64,000 nucleotides of DNA. It comes from Tortispora ganteri (lineage: Eukaryota). Both the position numbers and the translations under genes were made by a program. The stretch is from the NCBI GenBank assembly GCA_003707115.1, contig PPNB01000007.1, positions 124,001 through 188,000 on the forward strand. The letters run 5' to 3'. Positions 28,294 through 33,290 of the stretch are shown in pieces (positions within the stretch are counted from its first letter, which is position 1; every line of letters begins with the position of its first letter). A model generated the notes under the pieces. That model was not told where the DNA came from. It worked only from the letters and a program-made list of their open reading frames with translations, and ran no database searches.

Positions 28294-30342
28294 CTAATTG
28301 ATAGACAAATGGGATCTGAACTTTTCTCGGATCTCGCCATTACGGGATTCCGGATTTCCAAATTCTGTGACCTGAACTATCACGTCTTCATATTGGTGCA
28401 TGGAATTCACAAAGCTCAGCGGGTCGCTGTAGACTAATGATCTGTGCACGTCGTCTTCATCCATTCCATTGGTGATCTGTTCTATATTTGAAACCGGAAA
28501 TTCAATGTGCTCTAGAGGCCAAAACGCAGAATTTCCCGTATTGTTATCCGATACCAACACCGCTAGAGGTTTAACCGTATCTGGATCTACAAGCAGTCCA
28601 GATGCATAACCTCTGACCCGTGTTGGCGAAGAAACAGATATACTGGAGCCTAAGCGCAAATGCCGAGTTCGCCCGTTTATTTGATATGAAACTAATATCA
28701 GGCTCGGATAAGCATCGGTTCCTTCTGGATATAAAAAAAGGTTTCGCAGAAACATTATCTTAGATATCTCACTCGTTAGCTTGCTGCAGATATCTAACGG
28801 CGAATACTCCCTTGCTGCTGATTTACTAAGCAAACCAGATAACCCGCCTAAACAGCCTGTACAGGCGCATTTGTGGTACGGAGGATACCTTGTTGCGTAT
28901 TTGAATATTGGAATAGCCGGCATGACCTTGCGCCTCAACGGTAATTTTCTTAACGGGACAGGTGATAGCGTCTCGCCAAATGCTATTCGCATAACTGAGT
29001 GACATAAGTTTGCATAGCTGTCAAATTTGCATACAGATGGTAAGGGAGTTTTCCATGTCTCTTTGATATCCTTGACAGCTGGGCATCTGCCATAAAGTCG
29101 TATGTACATAAGAGGAGCTTCCCCGCTCCTTAGTATATTCGTATACTTGGTCTCCGTTAGAAACGTCCTGTGCTTATCAGGAGCATATATTCCTAGATAA
29201 ATGATATCCTCTCCCTCACTATGCCTCAAAATTGGCATCGCCCAAAGTCCGATTTTGTGGCACAAGTGCTGAAGCATCAAAAGATAAGTAATGACTGGCC
29301 ATATCTTCATAATAAGTTTGAGCCCATATGCATTGTTCGCTTTAGCATCGCTAATAGCAGGCCTTATAAGTTTTATGCACTGTACAAACCTGCAGTATAA
29401 TTCTTTGTAAACCTCATGCGGCTCTAATTGTTTCCCAGTCTTGTAATTTCTGTCCAGAAGCCAAGTCCACCTTTTGGATAAATCGAATCCCTCATTCCAG
29501 ATGTATTTAAAAGGGCTCACGTACCAGATATCAATACTTGCAAGCCATCCAATCCAAGTTAATCGTTTGTCTAGGAATACTGAAACGTCTGCAGTTTTTG
29601 TGTCTGTGGGTAAACTGTTTAGCGAAAATAATGAAGGAAACAAGCGACCAAATGCCACTTTCGGAAGTATACGCCATCGCAAATAATAAGCGATTGCAGC
29701 GTATTTCAAGTAATTAATAGGCTCTAGCGTGATTGCTCTAATGTTATGCCGTTCGTCGCTAGAAGATAGGATAAATTTATCCAGAAATCGCTTCGCTGTA
29801 GCTGGGTACTTTTCCATGAGTTCGAAAAGATCGTCCGCATAAGGTAATGAGCTAATAGCACCTGTCTCAGATCTGAACCAACCAATAAAGTTCCTTTGAT
29901 TAGTAGGCAAGTCAATTGAGTGCGCATTGTACACCATCAGTTGTAGATACTTGAATAGAGACTCTTCAATATTGAGTCTGTCGTTGATAGCGGTGTAATA
30001 AATGTAGTAGTGCAAACGAGAGTGATGGCACATGAAGCAGCTGCAAGGTTGAAAACCGTAAGAGTTGTTCCTACATGTGCATCTATGGCTTCTCACATGT
30101 ATTATATTAAAAACGAGTTTACCTTGCTCCCAGTAGCCTCCACTTTTGCGAGTTATTATTCGCCATGTGTGCTTGCTAGAGCTGATCTTGGCAAATTTCT
30201 CACAATTACTTTCTTCTGCTATCGCGAAAACCAAAGTTGGAGGAAGGTAGACGAATATAATGATTAAAACGTCAATTGGACAAGCTATCAAAAACCTGAT
30301 CCATCGATACGCCCGCACAGACATAGAGGCAGTTAATGACAT
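28294..30342 (-). CDS. Uncharacterised 682-aa protein with an N-terminal hydrophobic segment and Cys/His clusters
   Basis: Uninterrupted 2049-nt ATG-started ORF filling the gap between conserved genes; no family recognised. Confidence 0.7.
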   Translation of the reverse strand: MSLTASMSVRAYRWIRFLIACPIDVLIIIFVYLPPTLVFAIAEESNCEKFAKISSSKHTWRIITRKSGGYWEQGKLVFNIIHVRSHRCTCRNNSYGFQPCSCFMCHHSRLHYYIYYTAINDRLNIEESLFKYLQLMVYNAHSIDLPTNQRNFIGWFRSETGAISSLPYADDLFELMEKYPATAKRFLDKFILSSSDERHNIRAITLEPINYLKYAAIAYYLRWRILPKVAFGRLFPSLFSLNSLPTDTKTADVSVFLDKRLTWIGWLASIDIWYVSPFKYIWNEGFDLSKRWTWLLDRNYKTGKQLEPHEVYKELYCRFVQCIKLIRPAISDAKANNAYGLKLIMKIWPVITYLLMLQHLCHKIGLWAMPILRHSEGEDIIYLGIYAPDKHRTFLTETKYTNILRSGEAPLMYIRLYGRCPAVKDIKETWKTPLPSVCKFDSYANLCHSVMRIAFGETLSPVPLRKLPLRRKVMPAIPIFKYATRYPPYHKCACTGCLGGLSGLLSKSAAREYSPLDICSKLTSEISKIMFLRNLFLYPEGTDAYPSLILVSYQINGRTRHLRLGSSISVSSPTRVRGYASGLLVDPDTVKPLAVLVSDNNTGNSAFWPLEHIEFPVSNIEQITNGMDEDDVHRSLVYSDPLSFVNSMHQYEDVIVQVTEFGNPESRNGEIREKFRSHLSIN

Positions 30343-30812: not shown

Positions 30813-31427
30813 TCACAGCGCATTCCAAGCAGAATTAACATTTTCTGCGTTCCAGCCGTCCTCCGAAGCTTTTATTACACACAGTTCACTATCTGCAATG
30901 GATTGAATCAGGACTTTATCTGGATTACCATTGGCATCAGTTTTTATTTGCAGGCCTAGTTGTCGATAGAGCTGAACGATTTTGGCATTAGATTCTGCGT
31001 CGGAAGCTATTGACGTAAAATCACCATTCTGAAGCACGTTTTCTAACTTGGCGCATTCTTTCGATAAACTGTCTATTTCACTGGAAAGCGAATCCTTAGT
31101 GGTATTCATTTGTGTTATTTTATTGTTGCAGTTGTCTTTTTGGCGATTTAGTTCGTTCAAGTATGGTTCATGACTAGTGAGATTTTTTTGAAGTGTAATC
31201 ATGTTGTTCTTAGCAGCAGAGAGCTGATCCTCCAAAACTTGAAGTTTAGATTGTTTTTCTTTTATTTCAGTTGCACGTTTTGCTTGGTTGTGGTTTAAAG
31301 CATTCTGAATTTGTTGCAACTTTTTAACTGTACTCTCTGTTACGCCAGGCAAGACATCTGTCAGTTCAGACATTGATGAACTATAAGAAGACAGCTCACT
31401 TGCAGAAAATTGCGTTACTTTTGACAT
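30813..31427 (-). CDS. SPC24: Kinetochore Ndc80-complex subunit Spc24
   Basis: Long coiled coil, then LYRQLGL...PDKVLI and a terminal W-containing helix (VNSAWNAL) typical of the Spc24 RWD domain; ATG at 31427. Confidence 0.75.
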   Translation of the reverse strand: MSKVTQFSASELSSYSSSMSELTDVLPGVTESTVKKLQQIQNALNHNQAKRATEIKEKQSKLQVLEDQLSAAKNNMITLQKNLTSHEPYLNELNRQKDNCNNKITQMNTTKDSLSSEIDSLSKECAKLENVLQNGDFTSIASDAESNAKIVQLYRQLGLQIKTDANGNPDKVLIQSIADSELCVIKASEDGWNAENVNSAWNAL

Positions 31428-31526
31428 TCTGGAGTTGTTTTGTAAATGATTATGCAATATCTCGGCAGTCTGGTTAAAGAAATGTAAACAAAACGTTCTA
31501 AAGTGGGAGGTTTAAAACTTTGGGTG

Positions 31527-31546
31527 GTCACGTGATAATAACGCGT
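31527..31546. promoter_or_regulatory. GTCACGTG E-box (Cbf1-type) plus MCB ACGCGT
   Basis: GTCACGTG at 31527-31534 and ACGCGT at 31541-31546, about 100-120 bp upstream of SPC24. Confidence 0.5.
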
Positions 31547-31813
31547 CAAAAATTGGATTTGATTAGGCAACGATGCGAGGATTAGTTTTGATTAGAGCAG
31601 TTTTGTTTAATTAAAGAGTGTAAGCAATAACGAAGATACATATTTCAAGGTAATTTAGAAGAGGATAAGAAAAAAATGGGATAAAGTGGTTGGTAATGCA
31701 AAGAAACTGATGTGGCAATCCGGGCGGCTGTAAATGAGGGGAAGGGATAGAAGGTAATATTATGAGGAGTCCAACTTAGATTCTCTCAAAAAAAAAAGGG
31801 TGTATCTTTTATA

Positions 31814-32359
31814 ATGAGGACAATTGACGAAATTATTGAATCTAAACATTTACCCAATAAGGAGGCAGTGGAAATTTATGTGGAATTGGATCCGATGGAG
31901 TTGCATGAGCTGCGTGGAGGATGGAAAGGGTCAACGTTGTATACTGACCACTCACTCGATAACAAGATGGCATCATTTGGATGGCATGGAATGTTCTTCA
32001 AAAATAATGAAATTGTTTATCCATCTATATGGAATGCGAGTAATGGCTCCAAATTTATTGCAGATCCTATGAAAGTAATTACGGCTGTTCATTCATCTAC
32101 CGCTAATGATATTATGGGATCCCCGCAATGTTATTCGACTACTTCCGATTCCGCTCGAGTCAGAATGATAGTATCCTATGGGGAACCTACTGCTACACTT
32201 ATATATGACAATTTGCCTATTTATGATTCATTTAAACGAATTGATAATGATCGTATCATGGGTCTAGTCGACATGAAGGGCGTTGATGATCCCTACTTCT
32301 TCATGATGACCCGTGATTTTGATCTTGGCAAAGAGTTGGGACTTGAAGTGATAGATTAG
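31814..32359 (+). CDS. GXWXG + DUF4334 domain protein
   Basis: GGWKG motif, WHG.FF, ARVRM, TATLIYDNLPIYDSFKRID and MGLVDMKG..PYFF. Confidence 0.88.
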   Translation: MRTIDEIIESKHLPNKEAVEIYVELDPMELHELRGGWKGSTLYTDHSLDNKMASFGWHGMFFKNNEIVYPSIWNASNGSKFIADPMKVITAVHSSTANDIMGSPQCYSTTSDSARVRMIVSYGEPTATLIYDNLPIYDSFKRIDNDRIMGLVDMKGVDDPYFFMMTRDFDLGKELGLEVID

Positions 32360-32432
32360 CGGGGATCAGTGCCAATTTGGGACATATCACCACCTAAACA
32401 ACACCCAAGTGCATCTGACACTATACCATAAC

Positions 32433-33290
32433 ATGATTATATCATTTATATTAAACTCATTTCTTTTAGCTTCTATTGTTTATATCTCTGTATTTGCCTT
32501 ATTTGTGCAATCAGCAGTAACATACGCTATATTTTACTACAGTTACATTCCCAATGCCGCACTGCAGTTCACTATAGATTACCCACAGCACCACGCTGTC
32601 ATTGATTTCGTCACTGACGACAATGGTATACTCACCACCCCCTCAAAACAGAAGTACAATGTTCAATTGTCGCTGTTTCTACCAGATTCGCCACAGAATA
32701 GAGCGTTAAATTCATTCCCTATTGTTGTAGTGCTCAATTCAGACACTGCCGTCCAGCATTTCCATCTGCGATCGGGCCTTCCTTACGTATCTAACGAACT
32801 CCGCTTGTTACGCCTTGCCATGCTCTGGCCTCTAAAAATCTTCGACCAATATGCAGAGTCCGAAACACTAGTCATACCAGTCACCTCAGATTTCACCTTT
32901 CAAAAACCATCGCCTTCAACTACGTTTGAGGTACAATTGCCCCATGATCTCTACGTGTACTCACTACGCGTCCAGTTCTTTGCTAACCTAACTGGACTCA
33001 AGTATTTCATGAAATATCATCCATTCATAAGCGCACTGGCAGGTACGCTAGCGTTATGGGCCTTAGAAGTCTGCACCATGGTCTTGGTGATCGCGGTCGT
33101 TGCCTACTACATATTGTCTTCATCAGCTGCAGAAAGCAGTTCGTACCAAAAACCAAAACCAAAACCAAAGCCAAAGCCAACGACACAGCAGTACCAGTAT
33201 CCCGTGGAGATAAAGAAAGAGCCAAAAGAAGACATTCCGGTAGTACACAGTCTGGTCTCTGACACAACAACAGCAGTCCCGCCTTCCTAG
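32433..33290 (+). CDS. SEI1: Seipin (lipid droplet biogenesis)
   Basis: TM1 followed by FYYSYIP, YNVQLSLFLPDSPQNR, FFANLTGLKYFM and TM2; ATG at 32433. Confidence 0.88.
   Translation: MIISFILNSFLLASIVYISVFALFVQSAVTYAIFYYSYIPNAALQFTIDYPQHHAVIDFVTDDNGILTTPSKQKYNVQLSLFLPDSPQNRALNSFPIVVVLNSDTAVQHFHLRSGLPYVSNELRLLRLAMLWPLKIFDQYAESETLVIPVTSDFTFQKPSPSTTFEVQLPHDLYVYSLRVQFFANLTGLKYFMKYHPFISALAGTLALWALEVCTMVLVIAVVAYYILSSSAAESSSYQKPKPKPKPKPTTQQYQYPVEIKKEPKEDIPVVHSLVSDTTTAVPPS

What the first reader, a model, noticed from the sequence alone, without database searches (positions are those of the whole stretch)
31814..32359. GXWXG/DUF4334 gene of bacterial-type architecture: horizontal-transfer candidate
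Seen: an intronless 181-aa gene with GXWXG and DUF4334 motifs, inserted between core genes SPC24 and SEI1 in a locally AT-rich stretch. Knowledge, from memory of the family: it is mainly bacterial, with a shorter version in filamentous fungi. This copy has the long central insert (FIADPMKV...STTSDS) before ARVRM and the DMKG..PYFF..R tail that I associate with bacterial members. Some yeast clades (Wickerhamiella/Starmerella) are known for many bacterial acquisitions. It also shows motif drift (DH for GH, GMFF for GKxF). Inference: a domesticated bacterial gene of unknown function.
Basis: partly seen in the sequence, partly recalled or inferred. Interest (0 to 1): 0.7.

Follow-up and report, generated by a model that had tools for sequence, protein, structure and literature searches.

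The report
Bacterial-type barrel gene pair in yeast
A cactus-yeast relative carries two intact copies of a small barrel-shaped protein gene that looks borrowed from bacteria; this copy has changed several otherwise fixed residues, but what it does is still unknown and such borrowing is a known kind of event.

Summary
The ORF is real: 181 aa, GXWXG and DUF4334 above Pfam cut-offs, between SPC24 and seipin, and on one independently assembled contig with seipin and a cyclin gene. The host is a Tortispora-like yeast (Trigonopsidales), not the Wickerhamiella/Starmerella clade. Tortispora caseinolytica has both orthologs (82% and 91% identical). Both copies carry a 25-residue insert and motifs found in bacterial long-form members and in none of 11 named fungal homologs. 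Profile scores favour bacteria (197 vs 108; 365 vs 165). Bacterial transfer before the two species split is likely (about 0.8). No tree could be built, so this is not proven and the donor is unresolved. The protein models confidently onto PDB 4MVE (Z 20), a lipocalin-like barrel. Copy A replaced seven near-invariant residues, six identically in both species, which suggests a retuned pocket. Best guess for function: a cytosolic binder of small hydrophobic molecules. A T. caseinolytica gene model fuses copy A to seipin, probably an annotation artefact. Verdict: a new member of a known kind, of modest interest.

The parts
31814..32359 (+). GXWXG/DUF4334 gene, copy A (181 aa, P0001); predicted lipocalin-like barrel; no signal peptide or membrane segment evident by eye
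31871..32047 (+). Pfam GXWXG domain (residues 20-78); motif G35-G36-W37-K38-G39; K60 of the family replaced by M
32066..32152 (+). Central helical insert (about residues 85-113), absent from 11 of 11 named fungal homologs and from PDB 4MVE
32150..32314 (+). Pfam DUF4334 domain (residues 113-167) with long-form DMKG and PYFF motifs
30813..31427 (-). SPC24, upstream and divergently transcribed; 386-bp shared intergenic region
32433..33290 (+). Seipin (SEI1), 73 bp downstream on the same strand, with its own ATG; also next to copy A in T. caseinolytica
32328..32469 (+). Stretch that would have to be spliced out (142 nt, GC...AG ends, in frame) to reproduce the T. caseinolytica fusion model; weak donor, probably not an intron
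   Evidence: read against the junction; no consensus donor on + here

Best explanation
Origin (about 0.8): an ancestor of this yeast and T. caseinolytica acquired a long-form GXWXG/DUF4334 gene from bacteria. Two copies now sit at unlinked sites among core genes: A between SPC24 and SEI1, and B (G000:C557:549.5 kb) between a SWIB-domain gene and RPN6. One acquisition followed by duplication is slightly more likely (about 0.6) than two acquisitions. Function (about 0.45, inferred): a soluble cytosolic eight-stranded barrel with a helical insert that binds a small hydrophobic molecule, most plausibly an aromatic or terpenoid alcohol or aldehyde or a lipid, and buffers it or hands it to oxidoreductases. 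Copy B keeps the ancestral pocket. Copy A lost a conserved Lys (K60M) and Arg (R122Y) and changed several hydrophobic residues before the species split, then was conserved again, so it probably binds a different, more neutral ligand. Shown: gene integrity, two copies, orthologs, long-form characters, predicted fold, substitutions. Inferred: direction of transfer, duplication, pocket location of the substitutions, ligand class, expression.
For: Spacing from the invariant Pro to the invariant Ala is 19 in the fungal set and in 4MVE, 42 in a Myxococcaceae member, 44 in both Tortispora copies and 52 in a typical long form. Outside the insert, copy A has the long-form state at D49, T128, G156 and P160 and lacks the fungal WAG; none of the 11 named fungal proteins has the first four. 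Profile scores against 11 named bacterial versus 11 named fungal proteins: A 196.7 vs 108.0; B 365.1 vs 165.2. BLAST bits: A 115 (Ignatzschineria) vs 70.9 (Xylariales); B 176 (Corallococcus) vs 88.2. In the full-library search only 1 of 150 listed rows exceeded 51% identity, and it is the T. caseinolytica ortholog. The ortholog is 82% identical over 179 residues without gaps, against 85% for seipin. A 2857-bp contig at depth 79 spans the gene, seipin and part of the cyclin gene with no difference inside the ORF. Model pLDDT 95; 4MVE at Z 20.2, rmsd 1.9, 144 aligned; next rows fibrillin 5 and lipocalins at Z 7.6 or less. Context of homologs: directly behind a benzyl-alcohol-dehydrogenase-like Zn-ADH in 4 of 4 Myxococcaceae loci scanned; fused to a terpene synthase domain in a 63-member actinobacterial cluster; fused to an MpaB/rubber-oxygenase domain in P0213.
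Against: No tree was obtained. Plain identity barely separates the groups for copy A: 26-30% to 9 fungal proteins versus 24-36% to long forms. The alien index E-values is about 36 (hand arithmetic), below the usual 45 cut-off (recalled). Only 5 of the 150 rows got an organism name (26 checked), so unnamed long-form eukaryotic relatives are not excluded. Copy A is no closer to B (108 bits) than to bacteria (102-119 bits), so a single origin is unproven. The ADH link is confined to one bacterial family: 0 of 17 other bacterial loci examined had an ADH next to the gene, and the ADH has no close match in this yeast (best 34%). Lipocalin Z-scores are under 8, which the tool calls common.
Confidence: 0.78

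Rival explanations
1. Vertical inheritance: the long form is ancestral in fungi and was kept only in Tortispora, while other fungi have the short form and other yeasts lost the family.
For: The family is present in Ascomycota, Basidiomycota and Mucoromycota. Copy A is about as identical to fungal as to many bacterial proteins.
Against: 11 of 11 named fungal homologs are short and share their own motifs. Copy B is 50% identical to Myxococcaceae against 31% to the fungal seed. No other yeast is among the 7 organism-named rows of the 120 listed. No short-form gene was found in this genome (2 of 2 candidates scored were A and B).
Confidence: 0.08
2. The gene is bacterial in the end but reached the yeast through another eukaryote (amoeba, alga or an unsampled fungus).
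For: Several unnamed long-form proteins with long non-family extensions (P0156, P0172, P0234, P0238, P0261) look eukaryotic to me, which is a judgement and not a result. An unchecked earlier scan note reports a bacterial-type member in Naegleria.
Against: Those proteins rank well below bacterial ones for copy A. The best unnamed hit of copy B is 84% identical to a Pyxidicoccus protein, so it is myxobacterial-like.
Confidence: 0.08
3. The family are barrel enzymes (cyclase, isomerase or dehydratase type) rather than carriers. B is active and A is a catalytically altered or non-catalytic derivative.
For: Polar residues H46, K60, R117, Y131, D138 and D153 are invariant or nearly so across 78 sequences, more than a passive carrier needs. 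The domain is fused to a terpene synthase domain in one cluster.
Against: No enzyme stands out in the fold searches; the top rows after 4MVE are mostly binders and all have Z under 8. No activity is reported in the papers found.
Confidence: 0.25
4. Copy A is spliced to seipin and forms a cytosolic lipid-binding N-terminal domain of seipin, as in the 427-aa T. caseinolytica model CANCADRAFT_3912.
For: The public model joins residues 1-171 to seipin. The same junction can be drawn in frame in the window with GC...AG ends. The gap is only 73 bp.
Against: The donor would be a non-consensus GC site, and no GTRWGT lies on + between 31814 and 32470. Seipin has its own ATG with A at -3, ahead of the hydrophobic segment. 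Stop read-through is out of frame. A 74-bp tandem gap occurs elsewhere in the window (10497/10572). All homologs seen are free of seipin.
Confidence: 0.07
5. Contamination, misassembly or a decaying pseudogene.
For: Motif drift at 7 of 22 near-invariant sites; expression not shown.
Against: A single contig bridges the gene and its eukaryotic neighbours at the same depth. The ortholog lies next to seipin in a second species, is gap-free and shares 6 of the 7 replacements exactly.
Confidence: 0.02

Closest known systems
GXWXG (PF14231) + DUF4334 (PF14232) proteins; PDB 4MVE, Tcur_1030 of Thermomonospora curvata
   Same: Both domains above cut-off; model matches 4MVE at Z 20.2, rmsd 1.9 over 144 residues.
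   Different: 4MVE is the short form. This protein has a 25-residue helical insert, a 13-residue tail and replacements at 7 near-invariant sites. No function was found for 4MVE in the searches run.
Short-form fungal GXWXG proteins (Xylariales, Aspergillus, Penicillium, Mycena, Dichotomocladium; one labelled 'transcription factor cmr1' by its source)
   Same: Same two domains; 26-30% identity.
   Different: No insert, and WAGK, MDNK-type and YYFY-type motifs instead of the long-form ones. They do not look like the source of the Tortispora copies.
Myxococcaceae DUF4334 proteins behind a Zn alcohol dehydrogenase
   Same: Top tblastn hits of copy B among GTDB candidates, about 50% identity, similar mid-length insert.
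   Different: Only 32% to copy A; the dehydrogenase has no close match in the yeast. Donor status is not established.
Lipocalins / calycins, including plant fibrillin 5
   Same: Antiparallel barrel with GxW at the first strand and Arg at the end of the last (motif definitions recalled); Z 5-7.6.
   Different: Scores are below the level at which the tool trusts a match; not secreted; ligand unknown.
Bacterial genes acquired by yeasts, e.g. pectin lyase in cactophilic Pichia (PMC11449361, section 9 read)
   Same: Single bacterial-type gene, narrow yeast distribution; most Tortispora species are cactus-associated according to that paper.
   Different: That case has a tree and a known activity. 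Here there are two copies, one diverged, and no known activity.

Membership tests
GXWXG/DUF4334 family | PF14231 at or above 25 bits | tested here: met
   47 bits
GXWXG/DUF4334 family | PF14232 at or above 25 bits | tested here: met
   68.9 bits
GXWXG/DUF4334 family | 4MVE fold | tested here: met
   Z 20.2, rmsd 1.9, 144 aligned
GXWXG/DUF4334 family | Near-invariant residues kept | tested here: inconclusive
   15 of 22 near-invariant sites kept, 7 replaced; the 7 'invariant' columns include the query by construction
Long (bacterial-type) subgroup | Insert between the VxP strand and ARxR; D49, T128, G156, P160 | tested here: met
Short fungal subgroup | Pro-to-Ala spacing of 19 and WAGK motif | tested here: not met
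   spacing 44, WHGM
Lipocalin/calycin superfamily | Eight-stranded antiparallel barrel matching lipocalins | tested here: inconclusive
   many lipocalin rows, but Z 7.6 or less; Foldseek E 0.02 or worse for copy B
Lipocalin/calycin superfamily | Hydrophobic ligand bound in the barrel | not testable with these tools
   needs purified protein
Horizontally acquired gene | Physically integrated among host genes | tested here: met
Horizontally acquired gene | Closer to bacterial than to non-kin fungal homologs | tested here: met
   alien index about 36 for copy A is below the recalled cut-off of 45, while the bit-score gaps of 44 and 88 exceed the recalled cut-off of 30
Horizontally acquired gene | Nested in a bacterial clade in an ML tree, fungal monophyly rejected | not tested
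   tree scripts returned nothing
Horizontally acquired gene | Absent from related yeast lineages | tested here: inconclusive
   no other named yeast, but most rows are unnamed and no yeast genome set could be searched
Wickerhamiella/Starmerella clade acquisitions | Host belongs to the W/S clade | tested here: not met
   orthologs 82-91% identical to Tortispora caseinolytica, Trigonopsidales

The most novel reading that the evidence does not exclude
A bacterial lipocalin-like barrel was duplicated after transfer, and the retuned copy A was recruited to lipid-droplet biology: expressed with seipin, or spliced onto its cytosolic N-terminus, so that it delivers or senses a neutral lipid at the seipin ring. 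That would be a horizontally acquired domain grafted onto a core eukaryotic organelle machine, and a first function for GXWXG/DUF4334.
Probability: 0.07. Interest if true: 0.75.

Novelty: new member of a known kind. Interest (0 to 1): 0.33.

Why it matters
Bacterial genes in yeasts are known, so the origin alone is ordinary. The value is a clean natural experiment for an uncharacterised family. One small yeast genome holds a canonical copy and a copy with fixed replacements at near-invariant sites, and both are kept in two species. Single and double knockouts, and purified A versus B, could give GXWXG/DUF4334 a first function and show which residues define its pocket. One RT-PCR settles whether the public seipin fusion model is real or should be split.

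Tried and rejected
ML phylogeny: not obtained, the script machine was lost. dN/dS: not possible, no T. caseinolytica DNA was available. Word-based homolog search with copy A: 0 of 101 candidates passed, a sensitivity limit, since the full HMMER scan found 379. Expression: no RNA holder listed, which is no evidence either way. The two DNA runs laid show identical depth over the gene and may be one data set. Zero differences in the ORF versus 6 in SPC24 and 5 in seipin is too few and too linked to count as selection. Metagenome scan with copy A: 0 of 184 stretches confirmed; the scan with B gave no answer. Viral contigs: 0 of 75. NCBIfam: no family for A or B. Base composition as a sign of foreign origin: rejected. 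Co-transfer of the myxobacterial ADH: rejected. Assigning the copies to a mid-insert or a full-long subgroup: inconclusive, A 187.8 vs 177.0 and B 316.2 vs 346.3 on hand-picked sets of 10. A conserved gene neighbourhood across phyla: not found, 0 of 17 non-myxobacterial loci had an ADH and neighbours varied. Branch-point scan of the candidate intron: not obtained. Literature: 'GXWXG' 2 papers, 'DUF4334' 1, PDB/Pfam ids 3 (one opened, a false match; two unrelated by title), terpene synthase plus lipocalin 0; the Tortispora/HGT listings show no title on this gene. Earlier scan notes by sequence and by place: nothing. Complex prediction was not run: adjacency alone did not justify it.

Full report
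Observation. The ORF at 31814-32359 (+) encodes 181 aa in one frame. Pfam gives GXWXG at 47 bits and DUF4334 at 68.9 bits, both above the cut-off of 25. The neighbours are Spc24 (divergent, 386 bp away) and seipin (tandem, 73 bp away). The AT-rich remark carries no weight: the ORF is 39.2% GC, SPC24 38.2%, and 4 of 32 two-kb bins are lower than the bin holding the gene's start. DH for GH also occurs in other homologs. K60M is a real departure.

The gene belongs to this genome. In two public DNA runs, which may be one data set, a 2857-bp contig at depth 79 runs from 31619 through the gene and seipin into the cyclin gene, with no difference inside the ORF. No RNA holder was listed, so expression is untested.

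Host and second copy. The own-genome search found a second copy, B, at G000:C557:549471-549980 (38% identity). It is 182 aa and lies between a SWIB-domain gene and RPN6. Searches with the Pfam model and with a fungal short-form protein each scored 2 candidates and found only these two loci. B is 91% identical to Tortispora caseinolytica CANCADRAFT_103882. A is 82% identical over 179 residues, without gaps, to the start of CANCADRAFT_3912. The host is therefore a Tortispora-like yeast of the Trigonopsidales, not the W/S clade, and both copies predate its split from T. caseinolytica. A is about as conserved as seipin (85% over 217 residues), which points to purifying selection (inference; no dN/dS).

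Bacterial or fungal type. A search seeded with a fungal member returned 11 proteins with fungal names among 15 hits, from Ascomycota, Basidiomycota and Mucoromycota. All 11 are short. The spacing from the invariant Pro to the invariant Ala is 19 in the fungal seed, whose set aligns almost without gaps there, and 19 in PDB 4MVE from an actinobacterium. It is 42 in a Corallococcus protein, 44 in both Tortispora copies and 52 in a typical long form. So bacteria have both forms, and the named fungi only the short one. Outside the insert, A has D49, T128, G156 and P160, which are invariant or nearly so in 11 named bacterial long forms and absent from all 11 fungi; it also lacks the WAG motif of 10 of the 11 fungi. 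Against profiles of equal size, A scores 196.7 (bacteria) versus 108.0 (fungi) and B 365.1 versus 165.2; part of that gap comes from the insert itself. BLAST bits are 115 versus 70.9 for A and 176 versus 88.2 for B. The three nearest Atlas clusters are 96-100% bacterial for both copies, which the tool says is no proof of transfer.

Limits. No tree was obtained. For A, raw identity is 26-30% to 9 fungal proteins and 24-36% to long forms. The alien index is about 36 by hand, under the usual 45 (recalled). Of 150 rows, 26 were checked for a name and 5 had an organism; of 120 rows, 7 had one (1 yeast, 6 bacteria). Long-form eukaryotic relatives are therefore not excluded. The donor is unresolved. 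The best named bacterial hit of A is Ignatzschineria at 35%. A is no closer to B (108 bits) than to bacteria (102-119 bits), and subgroup profiles do not decide. One transfer plus duplication rests on parsimony and the shared spacing only.

Structure and divergence. Both copies model with high confidence (pLDDT 92 and 95). A matches 4MVE at Z 20.2, rmsd 1.9 over 144 residues; fibrillin 5 and lipocalins follow at Z 7.6 or less (similar for B). The insert forms helices at residues 85-107. Of 22 near-invariant columns in a 78-sequence alignment, A replaces 7: D23V, L52M, K60M, R122Y, M129L, M152V and L165M. Six are identical in the T. caseinolytica ortholog, and B keeps the family residue at all seven. 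The family residues at those six sites are invariant in both 10-member non-yeast sets. M60, L129, V152 and M165 alternate in register with conserved F62, Y131, G150 and F163 on their strands. By analogy with retinol-binding protein (recalled) the 161/163/165 face lines the pocket. This is an inference, not a cavity calculation. The pattern, a burst of change followed by conservation, fits a shift of function after duplication.

Function. No paper found gives the family a function. A transposon hit in Mycobacterium abscessus MAB_0274c impaired secondary biofilm formation, with possible polar effects (PMC11925935, passages). A table row in PMC10282554 lists a GXWXG gene as unknown (passage). Context is suggestive only. 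In 4 of 4 Myxococcaceae loci scanned, the gene directly follows a Zn-ADH whose closest named solved relative, for the one tested, is benzyl alcohol dehydrogenase; these four are kin and count as one observation. 0 of 17 other bacterial loci showed this. The domain is fused to a terpene synthase domain in a 63-member cluster and to an MpaB/rubber-oxygenase domain in one protein; other fusions (metallo-beta-lactamase fold, DUF952) point nowhere in particular. I put a carrier or buffer for small hydrophobic alcohols, aldehydes or lipids at about 0.45 and a barrel enzyme at about 0.25. A link to cactus chemistry is speculation; PMC11449361 (passages and section 9 read) places most Tortispora on cacti and reports transfer of a pectin lyase in Pichia, and that section does not mention this gene.

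The seipin fusion. The T. caseinolytica model joins A (1-171) to seipin in a 427-aa protein. This shows that A lies next to seipin in that species; the SPC24 side could not be checked. In the window the same junction needs a 142-nt intron, 32328-32469, which is in frame but starts with a non-consensus GC donor. No consensus donor lies on + in this stretch. Seipin has its own ATG in good context, stop read-through is out of frame, and a 74-bp tandem gap occurs elsewhere in the window. I read the fusion as a gene-model artefact (about 0.07 that it is real).

Verdict. A real, retained, bacterial-type gene, one of a pair, probably acquired from bacteria by a Tortispora ancestor (about 0.8, no tree). 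It is a new member of a known family and of a known kind of event. Interest 0.33.

Noticed in passing
G000:C557:549471-549980 (L002 1471-2019, -): Second, canonical GXWXG/DUF4334 copy between a SWIB-domain gene and RPN6; the clearer transfer candidate (50% to Myxococcaceae, 91% to T. caseinolytica).
   Followed up: yes
P0123 (T. caseinolytica CANCADRAFT_3912): The public gene model fuses the GXWXG gene to seipin and ends in a tail unlike the window's seipin; it probably needs splitting.
   Followed up: partly
window 28294-30342 (-): A 682-aa ORF next to SPC24 with no Pfam or NCBIfam match; an orphan or fast-evolving gene.
   Followed up: no
window 31487-31648: Both DNA runs show two alternative short contigs (depth 56 and 40) in the SPC24/GXWXG intergenic region, differing by 6 letters and one gap: a heterozygous or mixed stretch.
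   Followed up: no
window 31528-31548: A CACGTG box and an ACGCGT box lie side by side in the divergent promoter; they resemble Cbf1 and MCB sites (recalled) and would suit SPC24, but could also put the acquired gene under cell-cycle control.
   Followed up: no
L005 2877-4004, L006 2889-4007, L012 2886-4004, L016 2883-4004: In Myxococcaceae a Zn alcohol dehydrogenase ends right at the start of the DUF4334 gene; in L006 an aldehyde dehydrogenase follows on the other strand.
   Followed up: partly
structure row 3: An actinobacterial cluster of 63 proteins fuses GXWXG/DUF4334 to a terpene synthase domain (PF19086 in 100% of members); a good place to look for the family's ligand.
   Followed up: no
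window 33160-33185: The seipin C-terminal tail has a Lys-Pro run (KPKPKPKPKP) that the T. caseinolytica model lacks.
   Followed up: no
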